64,000 nt of DNA, taken from the NCBI GenBank assembly GCA_000004985.1, contig GG738880.1. One strand, 5' to 3'. This document shows positions 29,039 through 56,281 of this stretch, one piece after another (positions within the stretch are counted from its first letter, which is position 1; every line of letters starts with the position of its first letter). Position numbers and translations under genes: made by a program. The notes under the pieces were generated by a model, which was given only the letters and a program-made list of their open reading frames with translations, was not told the origin of the DNA and did no database searches. The DNA comes from Naegleria gruberi. Its lineage: Eukaryota.

Positions 29039-30031
29039 TTACTCAGCATTGTCCTCCACATGTTTTAAAATAATTTCATAAATTTTGAATAACAAATTTG
29101 GAGAAACAATCTTTTCATCCTCAATTCTTGTAAGGAAATTGGAAAATACTTTCGGTATGGCAAAGTAAGTATTCGATTTAGCATTGGCGGTATTTGTTGC
29201 TGGAGTTGGAGTGTTTGCTTGCTTTTTGTCTCCCTTTTGATCAATCTCAATCAAATGTTTGAGGAATTTTCTCAGTTGACTTGCATTTTCTCCCACAACT
29301 TTATCAGCCGAATCAATAGTTGCAAATTTAATCTTACACCAATCGTGAATGGCTTGATAGAAAATTCCTGACGACAATTCAGATGCCATGTTTGGTAAAA
29401 ATTCATTGATCATGAAATTTAAATCCCATCCACTAATTATTTCAGGAGAGAATGAATCTTCCTGACTTTCCACAATGTATTTCCTCAAATTATCAATCTT
29501 GGAATAATCTTCGTGATCCTTTGCGAGATTCTCTGAGAAATTTTGCACAATGAATGGCCACATATTCACATTCAAATAATCATCGTGAATGCAATCCAAT
29601 ATTCTACTCTTCACTTTTGGGGAACACTCAAATAGTGTGAGCAATGTGAGAATAATCCTAAAATCAGTCATTGATAAATCTCTCGTCAATGAAACTCCAT
29701 AAATTAATTGTAGAAATGTAATGACAATGAAGGATGGCAAAAAGAAGGTAATTTCCTTCTTATCCGGTGATAGTGCCATCACTTTGGAAATATCCTCCCT
29801 CCTACTCGTAGCAATATCATCATTAAATAATTGTTTAAAAACAGATGCTGATTCGGAAAGTTTTTCCATGTTTAAATAAAAGACTCTATCCTTTACTTGT
29901 TCACTTAAAATTCCAAGTTGATCATACTCTGTCTTACAAATACATTTAATATCCTTCTCGGGTGTTGCTGAGTGATCATTCCAGCCAGCACATGTGAATG
30001 AAGTGTGCGGAAGGTAAACTTTTCCTGGCAT
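29039..30031 (-). CDS. Hypothetical protein with possible BTB/POZ-like domain
   Basis: 330-aa ORF. The region SESASVFKQLFNDD...KKEITFFLPSFIVITFLQLIYGVSL...LTLFECSPKVKSRILDC loosely resembles a BTB fold. It begins only 9 bp downstream of the stop of the histidine-kinase gene on the same strand. The real initiator may be an internal Met (for example MEKLSESA). Confidence 0.4.
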   Translation of the reverse strand: MPGKVYLPHTSFTCAGWNDHSATPEKDIKCICKTEYDQLGILSEQVKDRVFYLNMEKLSESASVFKQLFNDDIATSRREDISKVMALSPDKKEITFFLPSFIVITFLQLIYGVSLTRDLSMTDFRIILTLLTLFECSPKVKSRILDCIHDDYLNVNMWPFIVQNFSENLAKDHEDYSKIDNLRKYIVESQEDSFSPEIISGWDLNFMINEFLPNMASELSSGIFYQAIHDWCKIKFATIDSADKVVGENASQLRKFLKHLIEIDQKGDKKQANTPTPATNTANAKSNTYFAIPKVFSNFLTRIEDEKIVSPNLLFKIYEIILKHVEDNAE

Positions 30032-30040
30032 TTTTTTCTA

Positions 30041-33000
30041 TCATCTTCTTACAATATCGAGCACTAGCTGTCTGATATCACTTAACCTGGTTGGCTTTGA
30101 CATGAAGTATTTTACACCATTGTTTAAGAGTTGTTCCTCTTCCTTCTTATTTACAATGTTTGCTGTGAGGAGTACAATGTTTGGAGCATTTTCTTTACAG
30201 GTTTCATGAATGATTCGAGACGTGTCAAACCCATCGAGTCCATCCATGAAAAGATCTAAAAAGATAATGTTAAAGCAGCTATTCTTGACATATTTGATAG
30301 CTTCCTCACCACTTGAAGCTATTGAAATCTTTTGTAATCCAAGTTTGATTAGCATGTGTGAGAGAACCTTTGAATTAATCATGTTATCATCCACAATGAG
30401 AACAGAAAAGTGACCAGCAATGCTCAGTAATTCGTCCTCAGGTACAATTGATCGTTTCTCTATAGGTTTGACCTCTTCAATTAGGTGCGATTTGAGGGCC
30501 TGTGTAAAATCGGCAAGTTTGAAAATTGGCTTGCTTAAATATGGACCTTCTTTCAGGCAAGAAAATTGAACCATGGAAGGCAGTATATGAATCTTGTTGT
30601 GATTCAATGGCAAGTTCAATTCATGACAAATACTTTCAACATTCGAAGATTGTAAAGCTTCCAATAAATTTAAATCCACCACTATTATTAGCTTATCCAA
30701 ACTGTCCAATTTAGATAATGAGCCTTCTAAGGATTCAATAAGTGATTGTTTTGAATTGCATATTACGAAATTCTCCTCTTCATTGTAACCCGTTGCAACA
30801 TTGAAACCCCTGGAGAAATTTTTCAAACTCTGTGAAAATAAATCATTCCTATCCAGTACCATATATTGAGTATTGCGAGGAGAGCTTGTATTCTTCCACT
30901 TTGAAAAAAAGTTTACATGTTTGGAGTTATTCTTTTCCATGTTGGCACGATCTTCAAGTGAAAGTTCCTCAATTTCCTTGAAAGTTGTCTTACATGTAAA
31001 GATGAATTTTGATCCCTTATTTAATCCTTCACTTTCTGCCTTCAAGCTTCCCCCGAGCGCGTTTGAAATCATTTTTGAAATGGAGACACCTAGACCTGTT
31101 CCTTTTGGTGCATGCTGGGTGTTAAATTGGAGGAATGGTTGGCCAATTTTTGTTAAATTTTCCTTTTCAATTCCAATACCCGTATCACAAACTTGAATTT
31201 AATGTCTATGAATAATGATATTATAAATATTACAAACCTTCTATTTCCAAGTGGGCTTGTTCAGCATCAATTTTGACCAATTGTACACCAATATAAATAT
31301 AGCCAACCTCTGTAAATTTCACAGCATTAGACAATAAATTGAGTACAACTTGCTTTAGTCTCCCTTTATCACTATTTAGAATTATATTAAAAGGAAAATC
31401 TGGTTTGTAGTCAACTATGAGATCAAGTTTCTTTTTTGTACATTCCAAAACTACAAGGTCAATAACCTCTTCAATTGGTTCATTAGCATAAAAATATTCT
31501 GAATTGAGTTTCATATGTTGCTCCAATTTCATTAAATCGAGAAAATCATTTATCAATGAGAGCATAGTCTCTCCACTATTCTTAATCATGGTCAGATATT
31601 CATAATGCTCATTACTGATATTCACTGATGATCCAAGTAATAAATCAGAAAGACCCAAAACGCACACAAGTGGAGTACGTAGATCATGTGATGTATTTCT
31701 CAAAAATTGCTCCTTCTCCATAATGACTTTCTCTGATATTTTTCGTTGCTCCAACAATTCTTGCTCCACTTTTCTTCTCTGTTCCACTTCCTCTTTAAGT
31801 TTAATATTGCTACGTAATAGCTCCTCGGTTCTTTGCTCGATCCTTTGTTCGAGATTTAAATTTGCCAACTTGAGTTTTTCCTTTGCCTCTTCTCTTTCCA
31901 AATAATACTGCCAAGAAACAATGATCGTGGAACAGGTTGTGCAAATTGGCTCCAAGAATGAAATATCCTCCTCACGAAATCCTCCTTCTTTATTGGCCAA
32001 TCCAATCATGCCAACAATTTTGTTATTATGTATAAAAGGTAGTCCAAGAAAACTATTGAGGGGTGGGTGTCCTAATCCAATAATTATTCAAAAAATATAA
32101 TCAATCGATTCAATCAACCAATACTTGAACATACCTGGAGGAACATGATTAGGTGATGCAAAAGGATGAGTTTTTGGGTGATTAGTCAGTAAAGGTTGCC
32201 CTGTCATCATTACATGACCAAAGAGACTGTTCATGTTATTGAACTTAAAGCCTACTTGTGTACATTTTTGAAATAGATCGAGTGCTTCTTGAGATAATTT
32301 CGTTCTGGCGAAAGATATAGCATGTGAGTGTAGAAAAGGTTTTCCATCATCTGTGTACTTGACCTCACCAATGAAACTGTACTGGCAACGAATGAGAGAT
32401 ATGACCTCATTCAGCAAGTCTAAGAAGAGTTTGGATGGATTTTCCATATGCAAGGCTGCACTCAGTTGTGCATTATAAATTGATCTTAGTAAGTCATGAG
32501 AACGGCTAGCGTGTCCATCACTCTCCGGAGAATTTGGGGAGTGATTGGATTTGAAGGAACATTTACCAGAGTGTTTTCGGTTTATCTTGAGTTCATCCTT
32601 AAATTCTAGATCAATGGCACATGCCTTTCTATTCATACTAATTCGTTCCAATGTTTGTGTTGATTGTTGAATTTCTGCAAGGAGGTGATGTTTTCTCAGA
32701 AGTGAATCCAATTGTGATGTTGCAAATGATGTCGTTTCGTCGTCATCCATATTCGAGGATGAGGAAGACGAGGAAACACTAGATGAGGCTATTGAAAAAT
32801 GTCGTCCTGTTGAACTTGGATCAGAAATACTTTCAGAAGAGAATGGACATGAAAATCCAAAATCACCTGAAATACTTTCTCTATGATGAGGAGGTGAGAA
32901 TGCTTGCTGATGAGATGTAGGTGTGCAAACAACACTTTCCTTATGATGATTATGTTCGGTTATTAAATTAATGTCTGTTCTGTTTGTTTTATTTGTTGAG

Positions 33001-33254
33001 GAGGATGGAATAGAATCACCCTGTTGTTCCATTGCTCGCGTATTGTTGTTGTACAACTCTTGTTGAGAACAGCACTGTTGTTGAGTGACCATGCTGAGAA
33101 GAGTTTTGTTTTTTTTTTGGCTAATCGCTTTGGACATTTTAAGTGGTTTAACTACCGTAAAAGAGAGCGTTAAGAAAACAACAGTAGTTGTCACAATAAA
33201 GTCGTAAGGAAATTGTTGAGGATATGATTGAAAAATAATATGAGCGACAAACAT
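30041..33254 (-). CDS. Hybrid sensor histidine kinase (GAF - HisKA - HATPase_c - receiver); 3 exons: complement 32144..33254, 31238..32080, 30041..31191
   Basis: Exon 1 is joined to exon 2 by GTATGTTCAAG...TGGATTAG (plus 32081..32143, 63 nt, phase 1), continuing a GAF-like domain (FIGEVKYTDDGKPFLHSHAIS...G-HPPLNSFLGLPFIHNNKIVGMIGLAN). Exon 2 has the H-box FLRNTSHDLRTPL and the N-box LLSNAVKFT. Exon 2 is joined to exon 3 by GTTTGTAATATT...AAATTCAAG (plus 31192..31237, 46 nt, phase 1), giving EIE-V-CDTGIGIEKENLTKIGQPFLQF...GTGLGVSISK (G1/G2 boxes). Exon 3 ends with a receiver domain (VLIVDDNMINSKVLSHMLIKLG...IIFLDLFMDGLDGFD...LLTANI...KPTRLSDI). The true start could be the internal ATG near 33140 (MSKAISQ). 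Confidence 0.8.
31192..31237 (-). other. Spliceosomal intron (46 nt) inside the HATPase_c region of the histidine kinase
   Basis: Minus-strand GTTTGTAATATTTATAATATCATTATTCATAGACATTAAATTCAAG. Removing it restores the G1 box (EIEVCDTGIGI). Confidence 0.7.
32081..32143 (-). other. Spliceosomal intron (63 nt) inside the GAF region of the histidine kinase
   Basis: Minus-strand GTATGTTCAAGTATTGG...ATTATTGGATTAG. Phase-1 in-frame join. Confidence 0.7.
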
Positions 33255-41183: not shown

Positions 41184-42907
41184 TTAACAAGTATATGAAC
41201 CATTCCAATTCAAAAATACATAGGCACTTTCCAAAATGGATGGATTTGCTGGAGTATACATGAATACAAACTTGATTGACATTTCTGCCAATTTACCTTC
41301 TTTCAGCTTGATCATGGCTCTGGCAGTTCTTTCAGCTCTGAGATGAGATTGTTGCAAAACAGCAAGTCCATTATCGACATGTGAAATTATTGTTTCTCTA
41401 GTTGCCTTGGCTTCACATAACAAATTGAGTTGAGTTTGAATGAAATCAGGGCCCATAATTGAATCCAATCGAGTCAATGGTTGCTCTTCAAACATGGTAG
41501 AGAGTGGATCGCTCACATACTGAACAGATGTAAAATCAGAACCAACAGCAACAACACCCAATGGCTTTTCAACAAGTTGTGATGGAGTAGTGGCATCATT
41601 CACTGGATAGACATTAGTTGATGTTGAAGTAAGTGTTGTAATAATTGATGGAGTTGTTGGAGCATGCGCAATATCAGAAGAAGTCATAATCTCAACCTTA
41701 GAGAGTTTTGGTTTGGTTTCAAAGTTTTGCTCTGCTTCATTTGGAGATGATTTTCTCTTCTTTGATTCGGCTGAGGTTTTAGCTTTGGTCTTTTTACCAG
41801 ATTTACCATTTTTATCCAATGCCACTGAGGTATTATTTGATTCGATATCTTGATTTGAACCCATTGTTGATCTTCCTCTCTTCTTGGTTGATTTCATTTC
41901 CACACATTCCAAACCCAATCTTACGCATCTTTCACATGGTCGTTCGAAACCACATCTTGTATGACGTTTCTGACATTCAACACATGCTTTGCTTGCTCTC
42001 TTTCTGCCATTAGGATAGGGTGAATTCTTTTCTTGACTATTGGTTGGAGAGCTAGTTCTTGTACTGCTCTTATCTCCAGTTGGAGTTGTATTGACATTGG
42101 CATGTCCACGTTGTTTTTGGCCATTTGAACTATTGCCAGAAGAATGAGATGGTGATTTAACATCATGTTGTTGATCTTGCTCATCCTCAGTTAAATGATC
42201 AAAATCATCATCTTCTTCCTCAGCATGCTTTCTATTCGAAACAGTTCGATTCTTCCTTGATTGTCTTTGTGGAGAAGTTGCAACAATAGTTGGATTGAAA
42301 GAATGATGATCTTCAATATCGAATGAAGTTAGTGGTTCTGAATTATCCAACAAGTGAATAAAATCTTCCTCTCCTTTCAAAATTGAAACCATGCCATCCA
42401 CATGTTCAGGTGAAAAGAAGCCCTGATGTGGCTGATGTTGTTGTGATGATGATTATTATTCATGTGAGTGGTATCTACATTATAGTGGTGGAAAGTTGTT
42501 GTTGCATTATTGTTTACATGTTGTTGGAATGCTTGTTGTGGATTGGAATGTTGTTGTGGATTGTTGTGATAGAAATGTTGGTCAGGGAGATTTGAGTCGT
42601 GATAGTAAGAAGGAAGCATCATATTCTGTTTCGAATTGTGATGTTGGGAAAGGATGGCTTGATTTCTCGAATAGATATCCATCAGGGATTGTTTAGTAAC
42701 TAATCCATTCATCATCATTGATTCCATAGTGTGGTCAATTTGTGCACCACCATGTTCCAAGTAAGGATGCTGACTTGGCATTGAATAATTGTTATTATTA
42801 TTCAATGGTGGCATATAGGATGGAAATGAATTCACGAGATTACCATTGTTAATAGTACTATTATTTGTTGCTGAATTATTTGCTGCTGACATGACACGTG
42901 TAGCCAT
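41184..42907 (-). CDS. Zn(2)-Cys(6) binuclear-cluster (fungal-type) DNA-binding domain protein with Gln/Asn/His-rich N-terminus; probably 2 exons or a frameshift at ~42380-42460
   Basis: The 405-aa ORF has the six-cysteine pattern ACVECQKRHTRCGFERPCERCVRLGLEC, flanked by basic residues. The upstream 176-aa Q/N/H-rich ORF overlaps by 25 nt in another frame. A weak 47-nt intron (GTAGAT...CATCAG) or a single-base frameshift would fuse them in frame, since both frames are open across the overlap. Confidence 0.55.
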
Positions 42908-44582: not shown

Positions 44583-45809
44583 TTAAATCTTAATATTCTT
44601 CGAGTATTTAAGGTGAAGAATGATTGCTGAATAGACAAGTAGACTGTGAGCATACTTGATGTCTGTGTTAGTGATTTCTACATAAAGACCTCCCTTCAAT
44701 TTGTCAAATGCCAACAGTTGAGCACGTTTTCTATACTTCCTTTCTTTTTCTGTTACAAGATCAGACTTGGTTCCAACTAATACCACTTCCATTGGATTGT
44801 GTTGTTCCAAATCTTTGATGTGCCTATCCAATCTATCCAAAGTTAGTGCACTATTACTTAAATCAAACATGGCAAATGCTACATGTCCTCCTCTGTAGTA
44901 TATTGGAGATAGTGTTGCAAATCTCTCTGGACCACTGTAATCCCACAATTGCAATTCAGAGATGGAATTGGGAATGAGTTTGTATCTTTGTTTCAAGAAG
45001 GAAGCTCCAATGGTCGGCATGTCTTCCTTTTGTCTACAATTAATATTCTTAATGGCACACTCCAAAGTGGATGTCTTTCCCACATAACAGTCACCAAGCA
45101 TGATTACTTTGAAAATTTGTGTCCCCTCAGTGATCATTGGTTTGTTTGGTTTCCTTTCAATTTGAATCGATGATGCTGAACTGTTATTTTTAAAGAATGA
45201 TGACAAGTAATGTAAAACTGAACTCATAACACCACTACTATTCTTTTCATCTGATTTCTTCTCAATTTCTACTTTGGAATTATTAGAAACAACTTGATCT
45301 GAATTAATAGGACTTTCCACCTTCCCAAAGAATTCACTATAACACTCTATCATTTCCAATTCAGTTCCAAACCATTCATATTCTTTCTTACAAAAATCCA
45401 TTGTAATCGTTGCATGCAAATTTTGTGTTCTAACCTCACCCATCTTGGTTACCCCAATCAATCGAGTCGCCAATTCATAAACATGTTCCTTAAACATCAT
45501 CTTGATGAAATTTCTTCCCATTCTACTTTGAAAAAGGCTTGAAAATGCTTCATCACCACCACTATTATTCGAATCATCATCAACCAATTGCGCATAATCT
45601 TGATAACGTTTCCAAATGATCGGAAGGGAAATCTCCCTCCACGACCTACAAACTCTCACCACGGAAAAGATCAAGTGGGTCATGGATAAATGTTGGAAAA
45701 TCTCTCCAGTGAGTTCATCCGGAAGGGTGGAAAATATTTCCTGGAAGGAATACTGCTTGGTTTTAGAGTTGAAAAACAGGCGAGTGAGGGCTGAATTGTT
45801 GTTGATCAT
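44583..45809 (-). CDS. F-box domain fused to a Rab-like small GTPase
   Basis: 408-aa ORF. The N-terminus has an F-box-like motif (LPDELTGEIFQHLSMTHLIFSVVRVCRSWREI). The C-terminal half is a Ras-superfamily G domain: G1 IMLGDCYVGKTS, switch II/G3 LWDYSGPERF, G4 LVGTKSDL, and a Rab-like fold (EITNTD...). It lacks the C-terminal CaaX/CC prenylation motif. Confidence 0.7.
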   Translation of the reverse strand: MINNNSALTRLFFNSKTKQYSFQEIFSTLPDELTGEIFQHLSMTHLIFSVVRVCRSWREISLPIIWKRYQDYAQLVDDDSNNSGGDEAFSSLFQSRMGRNFIKMMFKEHVYELATRLIGVTKMGEVRTQNLHATITMDFCKKEYEWFGTELEMIECYSEFFGKVESPINSDQVVSNNSKVEIEKKSDEKNSSGVMSSVLHYLSSFFKNNSSASSIQIERKPNKPMITEGTQIFKVIMLGDCYVGKTSTLECAIKNINCRQKEDMPTIGASFLKQRYKLIPNSISELQLWDYSGPERFATLSPIYYRGGHVAFAMFDLSNSALTLDRLDRHIKDLEQHNPMEVVLVGTKSDLVTEKERKYRKRAQLLAFDKLKGGLYVEITNTDIKYAHSLLVYSAIILHLKYSKNIKI

Positions 45810-49833: not shown

Positions 49834-52800
49834 ATGTCATCAACCCGATCAATTTTCCTTCAAATTTTCATCACTTCCTTCATTGTTTTGTTTTTTTCAT
49901 CATTTAATTGTTTTTTATTATTATCAGATAATGAACATGATAATAATGATGGAATAATCATACAATCGACAAGAGAATCAGGATTAAGTTTCGGATTGGT
50001 GGAAGCTAGTCTATTTTATGGAAATATTACACTTTCGAATATGAATTATTTGACCTCTCTTAGGTATAATCCAATTTATTATGATTATCCGAATGGAATT
50101 TTATATGCTTTTGGAGGAAATGATAGTAAGAAACGAGTTACAAAATCAGTGGCTGCTACTAAATCTTTAAGAGAAATTAGAAAAAGTAATGGAAACGTTT
50201 ACAATACAACTGTTCATTCAGATTTTGGAGATTTTCAACAAATTTCAACTCTCACCACTGCTATGGTCAATTATGCTGTTTATTCGATTAATAATCCAAC
50301 TGGTGGAAGATTAGTTTATTTATTTGGTGGAGATTCAACATTTGGAATTATTCAGGCCTCTAACTCAATTACTAATCTAAATTATTATTCACCAAATTTG
50401 GCAAATATTCCACCAACCTATTTTGCACACTTCATTACTGAACAATATATTTATTTAATTGGTGGTATTTCGAATGGTGGTGTTTATGATAATGGAATTT
50501 TCAGAGCTAATCTTTCAAGTTTATTAACTCAATGGGAAAGATTTGCTGATTTTCCAGTAACTATTGCAAAGGCAAATGCATTTCTATTGAATGGAGATGT
50601 TTATGTCATTGGTGGAAAGAATAATGAGACTGATGATAATCGGATTGTTTATTCTGTTCCATTGAATGATTTGGAAACACTTTCTGCTAATTTTATTGAG
50701 ATTGCTACCTTGAGCCGACCAACAGTTGGTTCTTCACTCGTATTGACAAGGGATTATGGTTTCCTATTTGGAGATGAGAATGCTGGTTCTGGAGTAGGTA
50801 TTGATACTGTCCTTGTTTTTCCCACAAGTGATGTTTCACAAATATTCGAAATTGGTATCAATGATTATTATTTCTCTTATGGTGTTCCAGTTGTGGTTTC
50901 TGGAACTATTGCTAGTTTCTTTGAGAGCACTCGTTCAGAACTTGTTGAAATTGAATTGGCATCAGATGCAGTTCCATATTGTTTCGGATTGGATGCAACG
51001 AATCCAGTTGCATGTTCGGGACATGGAAATTGTGTTGCCAATGAATACTGCAGCTGCAAGAGAGGATATTATGGCATGGATTGTTCAGTCACCTTTCTAT
51101 GCAATGGAACCATTTCCTATTCTCAGAATGTGTGCAGTGGCTACGGTTCTTGTGTCAATACGGATGAATGTTCCTGTAGAGCCAATAGAGATGGAAAGTT
51201 TTGTCAATTCAGTTATTGTAGTGGTATTCTTAATACTGATCCAACAGTTTGTAATGGAAAGGGATCTTGTGTGAATTCAGTTTGTCAGTGTGAGCAGGGA
51301 TTTTATGGAAGTGAGTGTAAGAATTATTCGTGTTACGAAATACCTTCCACTAATTCTTCAGCTGCATGTTCAGGACATGGCACTTGCAATTCACCAAATA
51401 ATTGCACTTGTTATGGACCTTATTCTGGAGACATGTGTCAGAGATTTTATTGTGGAATTTTCTCGAATGAAGATGCCGATATGGCTTGTAGTGGGAATGG
51501 AAAGTGTACTGAACCTGGCAAATGCACATGTAACAGTGGATTTTATGGAGCCAATTGTGAATCTTTTAATTGTTATGGTGAAATATTCAATAGTTCAAGA
51601 GTGTGTAATGGAAACGGTTCATGTATTTCACCAGATCACTGCACATGTCGAAATGGCTATACTGGATCAAACTGCTCAATTCCAACTTGTTTTGGAGAGA
51701 ATGGCACCTTGGCTTGTGATTCACACGGAATTTGTACAGCTCCTGATACATGTAATTGTACAGGAGGATACTATGGCAGTAGATGTTCAATGTTTACGTG
51801 TTTTGGAGTCGATTACAAGGAACCATCTGTTTGTTCTTCTGAAGGTTCTTGTGTAGCTCCAGATACTTGTGAATGTAATCAATTCTATACAGGAAATAAC
51901 TGTTCTCATTACACATGTTTTGATGTGAGAGATGACAATTCAACTTTAGTTTGTTCAGGAAATGGAAAATGTACCAAACCTAATGTTTGTTCATGTAAGG
52001 AGGGATACACTTCTGCCAATTGCTCTGCGTATTCTTGTAATGGTATTGGACATGATAATTCAAAGGTCTGTAACTCTGTTGGTGTTTGCACATCACCAAA
52101 TAATTGTACCTGTCAATCAGGTTACTATGGTTCTGATTGCCAAGTTTCAGAGTGTTTTGGAATTAGAAGTGATAATCAAAGTGTTTGTTCTGGAAGAGGT
52201 GAATGTAGTGGAAGAAATGCTTGCAACTGCTCTCAAAATTATTTAGGATCCCAATGTGAATTGACATCTTGTTTCGGCATTCTTTCGAATATATCCAATG
52301 TCTGTAATGGAAATGGAAAATGCATAGACTTTGATCAATGCTCTTGTAAGGAGGGATATTCAAGTCCCCAATGCACAGATTTCTATTGTGGAACTTTTCA
52401 TTTTAATAATTCTGCAACTTGCTCCGGAAAGGGAAGTTGTGTTTCGCCTAATTCATGCAACTGCTCAATTCCCTACTTTGGAAAGTATTGTGAAAACTTT
52501 AATTGTTTCAATATTTTGAATAACCAATCAACAGTTTGCTCTTCACATGGATCTTGCATAGCTCCCGATACTTGCAAATGTGAAGAAGGTTATTTGGGAC
52601 AAAATTGTTCCTCCTTTTCATGTTTCAACAAGACAGCTGATAGTGATGATGTTTGTTCTGGAAGAGGTTTATGTATTTCACCAAATACATGCATGTGTAC
52701 TGTGGAAGGGTTCCTTGGAATGGATTGCAACTTGTCATTGCCATTTGATATTTATTTGAATGTTTCGAATAGTATTGTTATTTATAGTGATGATAATCCA

Positions 52801-55800
52801 ATTATTGGATTCAAAGTTTTATCAAATTATAACGAATCTGATTTCTTTGGATACAGATTAACATCTTCTGGAATTGCTCCTGTCAATCAAAAGAGCAATG
52901 AATTTACTCTTGACACTAGTCAACTTTCTATTGGCCTTACCAATTATTTCCTAATTGCCAGATTGAAGAACAGCAGAACTTCCTCATCTCTAAAACTTTC
53001 TGTTGTGAAATTACAAAAATCCAGACCATCAATTGCAATTTCCAAGTTTGTATCTGTCAATGTTCCTGAATTTATTGTTTCTAGAAATGCCACAACATTT
53101 GACTTTTATTTATTGAACTTGACAATTAGTGGGCAGTCTGTTTCTTCATTATTTGGATGTAATTCTAAATGTTTAGCCGATTATTCTTATTAATATTTAC
53201 TTGACAGGTGATTCTTTGGATTCAGTTTACAATATTTCCTCTTTACAAAGTTCTTCCTATGTTCTTATCAGTGATGCAAGCAATTCTATTGGATTTAGTC
53301 CAATTCTTCAAATTCCATCCTTTACTCTAACTAAATCTCAATTGGAACAAGCAACATTTTTACAATTTGATTTTACAATTGGATCTGCAATTGGTTCCAA
53401 GAGAATTCCAATCATTTCTGCACCAAAACCAAAGAATGGTGTACTCACAGCTAGTAGCTCAATTTCAAGAGGAGTTGCCCTGACAGATGCCTACAACATT
53501 GCATCAGTTGAGTTTTCAGCTGCCACTCAATTGTTACCTCTCAGTTATGCTTATGCATTCTATGAGCCATCACAAGGCAGAGTTCTTAGAATGAGTTCAT
53601 TCTCTACTAGCTCAGTTGCCTCCATTTATTTACCATTCATTGCAAGCAGTGGAAACGTCAGTTCAGTTGACATTTATTTACTTGTTAAGGATGATTTGGA
53701 TTTTATTGATCAGTATTACATTTTCACTCTAGAAGTCACACCATATTTAGGAAATACTGATTCATTGTTCAATCAAACTCTTCCAGATTCTATCAAGACA
53801 GTTTTTGCGTATGATAATTCCATCAAACAGTCGAATTCTGTTGCAGATCAAGTTGTGAAAAACATTGAAATTCCAACAAATTCACCAGAAGCATCTCTCT
53901 CTGTCATTCAACAAATTCTTCCACAAAATGCCAATACTCCATCAGTAGTTAAGGAAGTTCAATCAAAAGTTCAATCATTCCTTGGCAGTGTCCAAACAAG
54001 TCAATCAGAGGAAATGAAAAAGTATGGTTTCGTAAAGAATCCACTCAGTAGTACTGCACTCCAATCGACTTTGAATCTCATTTCGGATTTATTCTCATCC
54101 AATAGGAAATATCCAGCTACTGGAAACACTTCAACAACAGAATCTCTAGTTTTATCATTTAGTAAGATTTTACTTTCGAATGCTTTACCGAAAGTTGTCA
54201 ATTCCAAAGATTCAGACCTACCAAATGTTAATTATCATTCCAGTGAAATGAATGTCACTGTCTCTTCACTAATTTTCGGCTCAACCACTGACAATGCAAT
54301 TCAACAAACTCTTCATGGAACAAACTCACAACTTTCATTGAATTTAAAGAAAGTTGCCAAACAATTTGGTGGAGAATCAACAAATATTGGATTATCATTG
54401 ATAACCTATTCTCAAAATGTTAAATCGGATAATTATTCTGCAAGTGTTCAATCTGGATCAACTCTGGTTGAATTTAAATATTATCAAGATGCACAAGTAG
54501 TGACATTGAAGGATTTGGATTCACCATTTACTTTGATATTCACACCACTCAATGATCAAATCAAACAAAATTTAACACTCAACACTACGAATGTTAAATG
54601 TATGTATTGGAATGAGGAAGTGTCAATGTGGAAATCAGATGGCTGTCAATATTCAAATTCCTCAAAAGATTCTATCATTTGTCAATGCACTCACACAACC
54701 AAATTCTCCACTTTTATTGAGTATACTTCATCCTATTCGAACACAACTAAATTGACCGAAACTGAACTATTGTACATTGCCAGCGTGTACAGTGCAGAGA
54801 TTAGTTTTGGAATAATGTTTGCAATCTGCTCTGCCATCATTCTCATTGTCTTGATTATTTACAGGAAGGAACAACCATTACTTTCAAGATTCTTGACTCC
54901 ATTCTTGGGAATGCTTGCTCTATTAGTGGAAAGTGTTTTAATTTCAATTGTGCAAAGATCTGTACTTGTTAGTCAACTCTTACCAAGTCAATCTAAAATG
55001 TGGGAATCTGGAGGCGAAACTGCCACTAATATTGTTGGAAATGTCACTATGATTATTGTAAACACATTGAATTTGACAGCCATCTTGGCATATGTCATCC
55101 AAGTTATTAGATTCCAGCTCCTCAAATATTTATATGATGTGATAGCTCAGAAGAATAATGGTCAATCATTCATGATGAAAGTATTGAGATTCGTCACTTC
55201 TAAAAAGCTTTTCGTCACTCTGATTGTCATTTCATTAATCTTTAATTTGTGCTATTGGTTAATGTGGGTCTTGTTAGTGAGATTGAGTGTTATTACTGCA
55301 TCTGTTTATACTGAGGCAGTTTCCATTTCGTATACAGTTATTATATTCGGATATAGTGTGATTATTAGTATTATAGCAATTGTGGATATTATTTCTAGTA
55401 CAAGACAAAAGAAGATTAAGAGGAGAAGAAGGTCAACTGTCAATTCATTGTCTTCAACTAGCTCAACAAAATCATCCCAGTCACTTATTCCATCAAAATC
55501 TACTCGAAGATTCTTTTATTTGGATGCTCCTTTATTTTTCAGATCTGAAATGTTCATGTATTTGGTCTGTTTTGCACTCATGATTATTCAACAAGTTATT
55601 GGATTAGTTTCTAATAATTTCAGATTTATTGATGCAAATGCTTATGAAATTGCAATTTATTTTGATGGAATTCGATTTGCATTTGAAGTATTGTACACTT
55701 GTGTGTATTTACTTGTATTTGGAGGTTTTGCTATTCTTGTACTAATTGTCTACAAGGTAAAAATTAACAAGAGAAGAAAACAACTGGTCAACCAAGATTT

Positions 55801-56281
55801 ACAAGATACTGAAATGATTGAAACCATCTCGGATGACAGAGGTTACGACCTCTTTGAACAATTCTGCATCCAAGAATTAGCTACAGAAAATCTCTACCTC
55901 TTGGAATTACTGAGATACAATCCAGAGTTTGTGGAAGGAAGAAGTATGAATGAATTGCCAAACTTTTTAGAAACCATTCATGATTTGTTCATCAAGACTG
56001 GAGCCGTTTCTGAAGTGAATATTCCATCAACAACTAGAAAGAGATTCCTGCAAATGATGAAACTTGTAAAGGAGGAAAAGAAAATGTCAGTTGAAAAGAT
56101 AACTCTTGAAGTTCAGCAATGTTTTGAAGAATTGCATGATCAAGTTTCTGTTAATTTGGGAGATACCTTTTCAAGATTTGTTCTAACAGAAATTTATGAG
56201 CAATACAGGAATCAACGTGCTTTGAAAATGGAATTGGTCAAACAAGCCAATATTGATATTGAATTGGAAAATTTGAAATAA
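49834..56281 (+). CDS. Giant predicted multidomain receptor: signal peptide - Kelch-like repeats - ~27 tandem EGF/tenascin-type repeats - GPS/GAIN-like motif - 7TM - C-terminal RGS domain; 2 exons: 49834..53158, 53208..56281
   Basis: Exon 1 (1108 codons) begins with a signal peptide (MSSTRSIFLQIFITSFIVLFFSSF). Kelch-type motifs follow (LYAFGGND, VYLFGGDS, IYLIGGIS, VYVIGGKNN). About 27 Cys-rich ~31-aa repeats (CSGHGNCV...C.C..GY.G..C) span ~50960-52740. The donor T|GTAATT at 53159 and acceptor TTGACAG ending 53207 (49 nt, phase 1) join to exon 2. Exon 2 has a GPS-like motif CMYWNEEVSMWKSDGCQYSNSSKDSIICQCTHTTKFSTF immediately before seven hydrophobic helices. It ends in an RGS domain (YDLFEQFCIQELATENLYLLELLRY...FLETIHDLFIKTGAVSEVNIPSTTRKRFLQMMK). 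Confidence 0.75.
50960..52740 (+). repeat. Coding tandem repeat array: ~27 EGF/tenascin-like modules (~93-99 nt each)
   Basis: Repeating C-x3-5-C-S/N-G-x-G-x-C protein periodicity (e.g. CSGHGNCVANEYCSCKRGYYGMDCS, CNGKGSCVNSVCQCEQGFYGSECK). The periodic codon usage generates many spurious antisense and off-frame ORFs in the track (51290..51856+, 50801..51274+, 51962..52246+). Confidence 0.8.
53159..53207 (+). other. Spliceosomal intron (49 nt) separating the ectodomain and GPS-7TM-RGS exons
   Basis: GTAATTCTAAATG...TTACTTGACAG. Phase-1 join gives ...SSLFG-C-DSLDSVYNISS... in frame. Confidence 0.7.

What the first reader, a model, noticed from the sequence alone, without database searches (positions are those of the whole stretch)
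41184..42907. Fungal-type Zn2Cys6 binuclear cluster domain in a protist-like genome
The spacing CVECQKRHTRCGFERPCERCVRLGLEC matches the Gal4-type C-x2-C-x6-C-x5-12-C-x2-C-x6-8-C cluster, classically considered fungus-specific with sporadic occurrences elsewhere. Its presence with a Q/N/H-rich activation-like N-terminus is worth documenting. The gene also needs an intron or frameshift to be contiguous.
Basis: partly seen in the sequence, partly recalled or inferred. Interest (0 to 1): 0.5.

Follow-up and report, generated by a model that had tools for sequence, protein, structure and literature searches.

The report
Naegleria zinc-cluster PAS transcription factor
This is a real Gal4-type (Zn2Cys6) transcription-factor gene of the amoeboflagellate Naegleria gruberi that also carries an unannotated C-terminal PAS domain; public databases already flag the zinc cluster, and its broken reading frame is most likely a one-base deletion, not an intron.

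Summary
On the minus strand, 41184-42907 holds one gene split into two ORFs. The peptide CVECQKRHTRCGFERPCERCVRLGLEC (41904-41984) matches Pfam Zn_clus above threshold (E 1.8e-8, 34.8 bits, cut-off 21) and matches solved Pho7, Put3 and Gal4 DNA-binding domains.

The window is Naegleria gruberi. With an 86-nt "intron" removed, its translation is identical to the public 545-aa "predicted protein", which already carries PF00172. Neighbouring genes are protist-type, so this is not fungal contamination.

A roughly 99% identical contig from a related strain has one extra A at 42450/42451 and reads as a single 571-aa ORF. The N. fowleri and Acrasis relatives are single-exon. The proposed intron starts GTAAAC, unlike the GTAAGT/GTATGT seen at other junctions in the window. 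The frame break is therefore most likely a 1-nt deletion (sequencing error or strain mutation) that the public model hides.

The finding is ordinary to mildly interesting.

The parts
41184..42907 (-). Whole gene. It gives a 574-aa protein if one A is restored. The public model is 545 aa and the allele in the related strain is 571 aa.
   Evidence: ORFs. The translation with the 86-nt gap equals P0001 exactly, and restoring one base gives a single ORF.
42377..42907 (-). Upstream ORF (176 aa) encoding the N/Q/H-rich low-complexity N-terminal region, a putative activation region. After the frame break it runs into TGA at 42377-42379.
42450..42451 (-). Site of the 1-nt deletion. The window reads AATAATAATC-ATCATCAC; the related strain reads AATAATAATCAATCATCAC.
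   Evidence: DNA alignments. Position derived from the ruler and the sequence.
42432..42517 (-). The 86-nt GT..AG interval (GTAAAC...ATCAG) that the public gene model removes. It is probably coding sequence, not an intron.
   Evidence: It is 87 nt, in frame and without stops in the related strain. The 5' hexamer differs from GTAAGT/GTATGT at other junctions.
42168..42221 (-). Acidic stretch EEEDDDFDHLTEDEQDQQ, a putative acidic activation segment.
   Evidence: Sequence and coordinates. The function is inferred.
41868..42017 (-). Zn2Cys6 DNA-binding module with its conserved flanks: YPNGRKRASKAC..C..H..C....RPC.RC..LGL.C......KKRGRS. The six cysteines lie at 41904-41984 and the Pfam match at 41880-41990.
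   Evidence: The block is invariant across the family. AF2 with alignment A8 gives block-mean pLDDT 72-86 and two short helices (17-22, 33-38), one starting at each CxxC pair.
41745..41804 (-). Lysine/arginine-rich stretch KSGKKTKAKTSAESKKRKSS inside a disordered linker, a putative nuclear localisation signal.
   Evidence: Sequence. The linker has pLDDT below 50 in both models. The function is inferred.
41187..41567 (-). C-terminal PAS-fold domain (about 125 aa, ending ...YVFLNW), a putative dimerisation or sensor module.

Best explanation
This is a vertically inherited Naegleria gruberi gene for a sequence-specific transcription factor.

Domain layout, from N to C:
- an N/Q/H-rich region followed by an acidic region (inferred activation region);
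- a Gal4-type Zn2Cys6 binuclear cluster with basic flanks, which binds DNA (inferred from family membership);
- a roughly 100-residue disordered, K-rich linker (inferred nuclear localisation signal);
- a C-terminal PAS domain.

No coiled coil follows the cluster. The PAS domain therefore most likely provides dimerisation and/or signal sensing (inferred).

The broken reading frame in this assembly is a single-base deletion relative to the intact allele. It is either a base-calling error or a mutation specific to this strain. It is not an intron, and the public 545-aa model bridges it with an artificial 86-nt intron. Whichever it is, the Zn2Cys6-PAS core remains an open 405-codon frame with an in-frame ATG at 42390-42392.
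For: Shown:
- Zn_clus scores above the Pfam threshold and matches solved Zn2Cys6 domains. The cysteine pattern is unique in the window, with 0 matches in 200 shuffles.
- The translation is identical to the public N. gruberi protein.
- The PAS fold is predicted with high confidence twice, and every PDB hit shown is a PAS domain.
- Relatives with the same Zn2Cys6 + PAS layout occur in N. fowleri, Willaertia, Acrasis and Pharyngomonas. The N. lovaniensis relative has the cluster but no PAS segment in the sequence held. Together these span both major heterolobosean clades.
- The related-strain contig is collinear. All four other coding indels are multiples of 3, and the single 1-nt difference sits exactly at the frame break, giving a continuous 571-aa ORF.
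- Between the two strains there are 9 synonymous and 8 non-synonymous changes. None of the non-synonymous changes falls in the cluster or the PAS domain.
- The N. fowleri and Acrasis genes are single-exon.
- Other ORF junctions in the window carry GTAAGT or GTATGT, whereas this gene has GTAAAC or GTAGAT. GTAAGT and GTATGT are 2-3 fold depleted in the window; GTAAAC is not depleted (39 vs 44 expected) and GTAGAT is less so (24 vs 44).
- The linker is disordered with no helix after the cluster.
Against: - There are no expression, splicing, DNA-binding or zinc-binding data.
- GT..AG intervals of 86 nt or 47 nt would also restore the frame, and the public model uses the 86-nt one.
- It is unknown whether the related-strain contig is DNA or RNA.
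- The extra A could in principle be the error, although that would require it to fall by chance in the ~80-nt overlap of the two frames.
- The PAS assignment rests on predicted structure. At sequence level Pfam gives only a PAS_9 hit of E 0.098 in 1 of 8 members.
- The intron 5' consensus was inferred from a handful of junctions, not from annotated introns.
Confidence: 0.8

Rival explanations
1. The gene has a genuine short spliceosomal intron (86 nt at 42432-42517, as in the public model, or 47 nt at 42432-42478), and the assembly is correct.
For: Both intervals have GT..AG ends and restore one open frame. The 86-nt version reproduces the public protein exactly. Real introns of about 45-110 nt appear to exist elsewhere in the window.
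Against: - The interval is coding-like (N/H/Q/T codons) with no in-frame stop.
- In the related strain it is 87 nt and in frame, so the whole gene there is one ORF.
- The 5' hexamers GTAAAC and GTAGAT do not match the GTAAGT/GTATGT seen at other junctions.
- The N. fowleri and Acrasis genes have no intron.
Confidence: 0.12
2. The 1-nt deletion is real in this strain. The gene is then truncated or on its way to becoming a pseudogene. Either only the 176-aa N-terminal peptide is made, or the Zn2Cys6-PAS core is translated from the internal ATG at 42390-42392 without its N-terminal region.
For: The deletion is not in a long homopolymer, where sequencing errors usually occur. The downstream frame has an in-frame ATG just after the break.
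Against: The rest of the gene shows no further damage. It has no other stops or frameshifts, and only synonymous changes in the two domains relative to the related strain. A single-base miscall in a draft assembly explains the data equally well. This cannot be separated from an assembly error without the reads.
Confidence: 0.3
3. The locus is fungal contamination or a recent transfer from a fungus.
For: The domain is by far most abundant in fungi.
Against: - The flanking genes are protist-type: an F-box-Ras fusion, coronin, an EGF/GPS/RGS receptor, a hybrid histidine kinase and a dual-specificity phosphatase.
- GC content is uniform at 32-38% across the window.
- Homologues occur throughout Heterolobosea.
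- No fungal protein appeared in any search.
Confidence: 0.02
4. The cysteine spacing is fortuitous and the protein is not a zinc-cluster protein.
For: None beyond the general possibility.
Against: The Pfam score is 14 bits above the cut-off. PDB matches have aligned cysteines. The motif and its flanks are invariant across distant relatives. Shuffles gave no matches.
Confidence: 0.01

Closest known systems
Gal4-type Zn(II)2Cys6 binuclear cluster transcription factors (Pfam PF00172). By sequence the closest solved examples are S. pombe Pho7 (6e33/6o19) and S. cerevisiae Put3 (1ajy/1zme).
   Same: It has six cysteines with canonical spacing and the RPC proline between the two halves. Basic residues lie between Cys2 and Cys3, and a basic tail follows the cluster. 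It scores above the Pfam threshold. The model shows two short helices, each starting at a CxxC pair.
   Different: The host is a heterolobosean, not a fungus. There is no coiled-coil dimerisation element after the cluster and no fungal 'middle homology' domain (Fungal_trans). A histidine is invariant at the fourth position after Cys2 (C..C...H..C) across the family.
Fungal AcuK/AcuM family: Ert1/Rds2/Gsm1 in S. cerevisiae, Aod2/Aod5 in Neurospora, Pas2/Rds2 in Cryptococcus, Zcf11/Cwt1 in Candida.
   Same: The architecture is the same: one Zn2Cys6 DNA-binding domain plus a single PAS domain in a nuclear regulator. In fungi the PAS domain is needed for function and is thought to mediate partner binding (PMC12719309; PMC8092316).
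   Different: No sequence similarity to any named fungal protein was detected with the PAS profile (23 hits in 1.84 billion representatives) or with family profiles. The searches recovered a single copy for each named heterolobosean species (not checked systematically), whereas fungi use a paralogue pair acting as a heterodimer. Targets are unknown. In fungi they are gluconeogenesis, alternative oxidase and the hypoxia response.
Zn_clus ('Fungal TRF') proteins reported in non-fungal eukaryotes: haptophytes, stramenopiles and the red alga Galdieria.
   Same: They show that the domain is not confined to fungi (PMC4827209).
   Different: Those reports do not cover Heterolobosea and do not describe the PAS partnership. 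No paper in the searchable library mentions the domain in Naegleria.
bHLH-PAS factors of animals (HIF, ARNT, CLOCK, AHR).
   Same: They are among the best structural matches to the C-terminal domain. The logic is the same: a DNA-binding domain plus PAS-mediated dimerisation or sensing.
   Different: They use a different DNA-binding domain and two tandem PAS domains, and they share no sequence similarity with this protein.

Membership tests
Zn(II)2Cys6 binuclear cluster domain (PF00172) | Six cysteines spaced C-x2-C-x6-C-x5-12-C-x2-C-x6-8-C | tested here: met
   CVECQKRHTRCGFERPCERCVRLGLEC at 41904-41984(-). It is the only match in the window and 200 shuffles gave none.
Zn(II)2Cys6 binuclear cluster domain (PF00172) | Score above the curated Pfam gathering threshold | tested here: met
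   34.8 bits against a cut-off of 21, E 1.8e-8, profile positions 1-38 of 39. All 8 relatives tested also match.
Zn(II)2Cys6 binuclear cluster domain (PF00172) | Similarity to experimentally solved Zn2Cys6 DNA-binding domains with cysteines in register | tested here: met
   Pho7 E 4.6e-7 and Put3 E 2.1e-5, with weaker matches to Lac9, Ppr1, Cep3, Gal4 and Leu3. The predicted fold has two short helices at the CxxC pairs, block-mean pLDDT 72-86.
Zn(II)2Cys6 binuclear cluster domain (PF00172) | Binds two zinc ions and recognises DNA (typically CGG triplets) | not testable with these tools
   Needs metal analysis and a DNA-binding assay.
Classical fungal zinc-cluster regulators (Gal4/Put3/Leu3 type) | Linker plus coiled-coil dimerisation element directly after the cluster | tested here: not met
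   The residues after the cluster are disordered (pLDDT below 50) with no helix in either model. The sequence there is K/S/T-rich.
Classical fungal zinc-cluster regulators (Gal4/Put3/Leu3 type) | Fungal_trans 'middle homology' regulatory domain | tested here: not met
   No such Pfam match in this protein (E up to 0.01) or in 8 relatives (E up to 1).
PAS domain superfamily | Five-stranded antiparallel sheet with flanking helices, superimposable on solved PAS domains | tested here: met
PAS domain superfamily | Significant match to a PAS sequence profile | tested here: not met
   Only PAS_9 at E 0.098 in 1 of 8 relatives. One bacterial PAS kinase scored E 9e-4 in the profile search. The PDB sequence search with the profile found nothing significant.
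Fungal AcuK/AcuM (Ert1/Rds2) Zn2Cys6-PAS regulators | Zn2Cys6 domain plus one PAS domain in the same polypeptide | tested here: met
   The fungal architecture is taken from PMC12719309 and PMC8092316.
Fungal AcuK/AcuM (Ert1/Rds2) Zn2Cys6-PAS regulators | Detectable sequence homology to fungal family members beyond the generic cluster | tested here: inconclusive
   No named fungal protein was recovered. However, fungal sequences could not be fetched for a direct profile-profile test, and the AlphaFold database library was unavailable.
Fungal AcuK/AcuM (Ert1/Rds2) Zn2Cys6-PAS regulators | Paralogue pair acting as an obligate heterodimer, controlling gluconeogenesis and alternative oxidase genes | not testable with these tools
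   Only one family member was recovered for each named heterolobosean species. Partners and targets need experiments.
Spliceosomal intron at 42432-42517 | GT..AG ends whose removal restores the reading frame | tested here: met
Spliceosomal intron at 42432-42517 | Splice signals and non-coding character like other introns of this genome | tested here: not met
   It starts GTAAAC, against GTAAGT/GTATGT at other junctions. It has no in-frame stop. In the related strain it is 87 nt and read through as coding.
Spliceosomal intron at 42432-42517 | Absent from mature mRNA | not testable with these tools
   No transcript data are available.

The most novel reading that the evidence does not exclude
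The heterolobosean Zn2Cys6-PAS factors may be true homologues of the fungal AcuK/AcuM (Ert1/Rds2, Aod2/Aod5, Pas2) regulators. A similar layout also appears, from the sequence alone, in a Physarum protein (P0011). If so, this regulator type would predate fungi or have moved between distant eukaryotes long ago. In Naegleria, including the pathogen N. fowleri, it might then control the switch between respiratory modes, gluconeogenesis or low-oxygen adaptation through its PAS domain.
Probability: 0.15. Interest if true: 0.55.

Novelty: new member of a known kind. Interest (0 to 1): 0.25.

Why it matters
In practical terms, the public N. gruberi gene model is probably wrong: it uses an artificial intron to hide a 1-nt deletion. 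The protein also has a PAS domain that domain databases miss.

In biological terms, the gene defines a small family conserved across Heterolobosea. In it a 'fungal' DNA-binding domain is wired to a PAS module, the same design fungi use for carbon and oxygen-related reprogramming.

Almost nothing is known about transcription factors in Naegleria, and N. fowleri has an orthologue. The gene is therefore a reasonable candidate for study. It does not, however, change current understanding, because Zn2Cys6 domains outside fungi are already documented.

Tried and rejected
- **Exact-protein look-ups:** the neighbouring phosphatase ORF and the public protein P0001 were not on record, so the public scaffold annotation could not be read.
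- **AlphaFold database fold search:** the library was not available. This would have been the direct way to see whether fungal AcuK/Ert1 models are the nearest folds.
- **Profile search with the zinc-cluster region alone:** it returned one anonymous 76-aa protein.
- **Profile search with cluster plus PAS:** it returned only family members and no fungal proteins.
- **Scan of JGI metagenome contigs for either allele of the frameshift site:** 0 hits.
- **PDB sequence search with the PAS profile:** nothing significant.
- **Literature searches:** Naegleria combined with Zn2Cys6, Zn_clus or binuclear cluster gave no papers. The 12 papers holding 'Naegleria' and 'Cys6' looked unrelated by title; the one opened was irrelevant. 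The project accession of the related-strain contig was not found. No paper opened gave the Naegleria splice-site consensus; of the 11 hits only one was read.
- **Enumerating GT..AG intervals that join neighbouring ORFs:** this gives many alternatives per junction. The intron consensus used here is therefore an inference from visible GTAAGT/GTATGT sites, not a validated set.
- **Programmed -1 ribosomal frameshifting:** considered and rejected by inspection. There is no X XXY YYZ slippery heptamer in the ~80-nt overlap of the two frames (sequence).
- **Synteny:** the N. fowleri and Willaertia loci share a Peptidase_C26 neighbour. None of the window ORFs scanned has that domain, so synteny did not help.

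Full report
**1. What is in the sequence**

The interval 41184-42907 is read on the minus strand. It holds two ORFs in different frames that overlap by 25 nt: 42377..42907 (176 aa, starting MATRVMSAANN) and 41184..42401 (405 aa).

It is the only match to the six-cysteine pattern in all six frames of the 64-kb window. None occurred in 200 shuffles of the window.

Pfam Zn_clus (PF00172) matches residues 138-174 of the 405-aa ORF. The score is E 1.8e-8 and 34.8 bits against a gathering cut-off of 21, covering 38 of 39 profile positions.

A search of all PDB sequences with the 60-residue region finds these solved DNA-binding domains:
- S. pombe Pho7, E 4.6e-7;
- Put3, E 2e-5;
- Lac9, Ppr1, Cep3, Gal4 and Leu3, more weakly.

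In the alignments printed (Pho7, Put3) the cysteines are in register.

**2. Whose genome it is**

The first homology search returned "predicted protein [Naegleria gruberi]" (P0001, 545 aa, on a 416-kb contig), with PF00172 already precomputed. Translating the window with the interval 42432-42517 removed reproduces P0001 residue for residue. The window is therefore the N. gruberi reference (Discoba, Heterolobosea).

The surrounding ORFs encode the following:
- a dual-specificity phosphatase;
- an F-box-Ras/Roc fusion;
- a zinc-type alcohol dehydrogenase;
- coronin;
- a large EGF-repeat protein followed by GPS and RGS domains;
- HisKA and receiver domains of a hybrid histidine kinase;
- a DAG kinase;
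- a cytosolic carboxypeptidase.

GC content is an even 32-38% across the window. Nothing suggests fungal contamination.

**3. Intron or frameshift**

Many GT..AG intervals would restore a single frame, including one of 86 nt (GTAAAC...ATCAG, 42432-42517) and one of 47 nt (GTAGAT...ATCAG, 42432-42478). The public model uses the 86-nt interval.

A 2.5-kb contig from an ENA metagenome (L001) is collinear with the window through the gene and both flanks, at about 99% identity. It encodes a continuous 571-aa ORF (P0002).

Within the coding region the two sequences differ by indels of 6, 3, 3 and 3 nt and by exactly one 1-nt indel. That single-base indel sits at the frame break: the window has AATAATAATC-ATCATCAC where L001 has AATAATAATCAATCATCAC. 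The position is between 42451 and 42450. Restoring that A in the window gives one 574-aa ORF.

Further points argue against an intron.
- The supposed intron continues the N/H/Q/T-rich coding pattern, has no in-frame stop, and is 87 nt (in frame) in L001.
- The N. fowleri gene (2445 nt for 814 aa) and the Acrasis kona gene (1278 nt for 425 aa) are single-exon.
- At other places in the window where co-oriented ORFs abut, the junctions show GTAAGT or GTATGT followed by AT-rich sequence.
- Those two hexamers are 2-3 fold depleted in the window (14 and 21 occurrences against about 44 expected). GTAAAC is not depleted (39). This is what one expects if GTAAGT and GTATGT are the functional 5' splice signals. 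This last step is an inference from a small sample.

I conclude, with about 75-80% confidence, that there is no intron. The assembly carries a one-base deletion, and the public model bridges it artificially.

Whether the deletion is a base-calling error or a real allele of this strain cannot be decided without reads. Either way the Zn2Cys6-PAS part stays open, with an in-frame ATG at 42390-42392.

**4. What else the protein contains**

Alignment of the relatives showed a second conserved block at the extreme C-terminus: MGVI..S....P.IQYVS...L...HL..E..G.A......NP..L...Y.FLFW. Pfam does not recognise it. The only match was PAS_9 at E 0.098 in one of eight relatives.

AlphaFold2 was run on residues 125-405 of the ORF with two different family alignments. 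Both gave the same confident C-terminal domain, with block-mean pLDDT about 80-96 and a topology of two strands, then helices, then three strands.

With the more diverse alignment the zinc-cluster region also became confident (block-mean pLDDT 72-86). It shows two short helices, each beginning at a CxxC pair, which matches my recollection of solved Zn2Cys6 domains.

The roughly 100 residues between the cluster and the PAS domain are disordered and K/S/T-rich. They include KKTKAKTSAESKKRK, a likely nuclear localisation signal. No coiled coil follows the cluster.

**5. The family**

A profile of the PAS block was searched against 1.84 billion representative proteins. It found only 23 proteins at E of 1e-3 or better.

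Of the 16 whose sequences I read, eight also carry the Zn2Cys6 pattern upstream. These include compact proteins of 210-305 aa from anonymous assemblies and a Pharyngomonas kirbyi transcript. The weakest hit is a bacterial multi-PAS histidine kinase, which fits a PAS assignment.

Named members come from N. gruberi, N. fowleri, N. lovaniensis, Willaertia magna, Acrasis kona and Pharyngomonas. These represent both Tetramitia and Pharyngomonada. The gene was therefore probably present in the heterolobosean ancestor.

Among the long heterolobosean members, the DNA-binding block YPNGRKRASKAC.EC..+H.RCGF.RPC.RC..LG..C......KKRGR is nearly invariant. A histidine at the fourth position after Cys2 is invariant across all 14 members aligned.

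Between the window and the related strain there are 9 synonymous and 8 non-synonymous changes. All non-synonymous changes lie in the low-complexity regions, and none in the cluster or the PAS domain. This indicates purifying selection on both domains.

**6. How it most likely works**

- Shown: a Zn2Cys6 domain and a PAS fold, joined by a disordered basic linker and preceded by N/Q/H-rich and acidic segments.
- Inferred from the established behaviour of Zn2Cys6 proteins: the cluster binds DNA in the major groove, typically at CGG-like triplets.
- Inferred from the absence of a coiled coil and the general role of PAS domains: the PAS domain supplies dimerisation and possibly ligand or redox sensing.
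- Inferred from composition: the N-terminal and acidic regions act in activation.

Targets and signals are unknown.

**7. Comparison with what is known**

As a Zn2Cys6 protein it meets every sequence criterion tested. It lacks the coiled coil and the Fungal_trans domain that are typical of, but not defining for, fungal members.

Zn_clus proteins outside fungi are already reported in haptophytes, stramenopiles and a red alga (PMC4827209). Public databases already label this protein's relatives "Zn(2)-C6 fungal-type domain-containing" and "GAL4-like DNA-binding domain". I found no paper discussing the domain in Naegleria.

The closest known architecture is the fungal AcuK/AcuM group (Ert1/Rds2/Gsm1, Aod2/Aod5, Pas2/Rds2). 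These are Zn2Cys6 plus PAS proteins that act as heterodimers on gluconeogenic, alternative-oxidase and hypoxia genes, and they need their PAS domains (PMC12719309; PMC8092316).

The Naegleria protein resembles them in design. Membership was not shown: no named fungal protein was retrieved by any search, and the tools did not let me fetch fungal sequences or search the AlphaFold database.

From memory only, as a lead and not a test, yeast Ert1 also has a histidine at the corresponding cluster position.

**8. Verdict**

It is largely already recorded in databases.

This analysis adds three things:
- the frame break is most likely a 1-nt deletion masked by a false intron in the public model;
- the protein has a C-terminal PAS domain that Pfam misses;
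- Zn2Cys6-PAS is a family conserved across Heterolobosea and analogous to fungal AcuK/AcuM.

I rate it a new member of a known kind, with interest about 0.25.

Noticed in passing
window 49834-56281 (+): Two long ORFs only 7 nt apart on the same strand. The first (1119 aa) is full of EGF/teneurin-type repeats. The second (1026 aa) has a GPS cleavage motif and a C-terminal RGS domain. Together they look like one giant adhesion-GPCR-like receptor fused to an RGS domain, split by a stop or a short intron.
   Followed up: partly
window 29039-33254 (-): Four co-oriented ORFs. One has a HisKA domain (31230-32009) and one a receiver domain (30041-31072), and a GTATGT site lies at one junction. This is probably a single multi-exon hybrid histidine kinase gene.
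   Followed up: partly
window 44583-45809 (-): A 408-aa ORF combining an N-terminal F-box with a C-terminal Ras/Roc GTPase domain, which is an unusual fusion.
   Followed up: no
L002 1-1940 (-), N. fowleri contig: A second, different Zn2Cys6 gene (851 aa, cluster CVSCRKLHRKCDKTLPHCAYCVKTGKQC, long helical-looking body) lies about 5 kb upstream of the orthologue, beyond four intervening called genes. Naegleria therefore has several kinds of zinc-cluster proteins.
   Followed up: partly
L002 2209-3273 and L003 8651-9697: A Peptidase_C26/GATase gene lies close to the Zn2Cys6-PAS gene in both N. fowleri (about 3.7 kb away, three small called genes between) and Willaertia (directly adjacent). No such domain was seen in the N. 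gruberi window ORFs that were scanned, so local gene order is not conserved in N. gruberi.
   Followed up: partly
L003 7001-8635, Willaertia magna: The gene range is 75 nt longer than its 519-aa product needs, so that model contains a short intron or a patch. The protein also has a 10-residue insertion (SGGNNNIQQE) inside the PAS domain. Its gene model may need the same scrutiny.
   Followed up: no
window, both strands: The hexamers GTAAGT (14) and GTATGT (21) occur at a third to a half of the roughly 44 expected from base composition, while GTAAAC occurs at the expected rate. This is consistent with avoidance of strong 5' splice signals in this gene-dense genome.
   Followed up: partly
P0011 (Physarum polycephalum transcript): A 548-aa amoebozoan protein with a similar cluster (ACAACQSKHCACDEQRPCSRCVRLRLAC, with the same histidine) and a C-terminal segment that looks PAS-like by eye. 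It hints that the Zn2Cys6-PAS design is wider than Heterolobosea and fungi.
   Followed up: no
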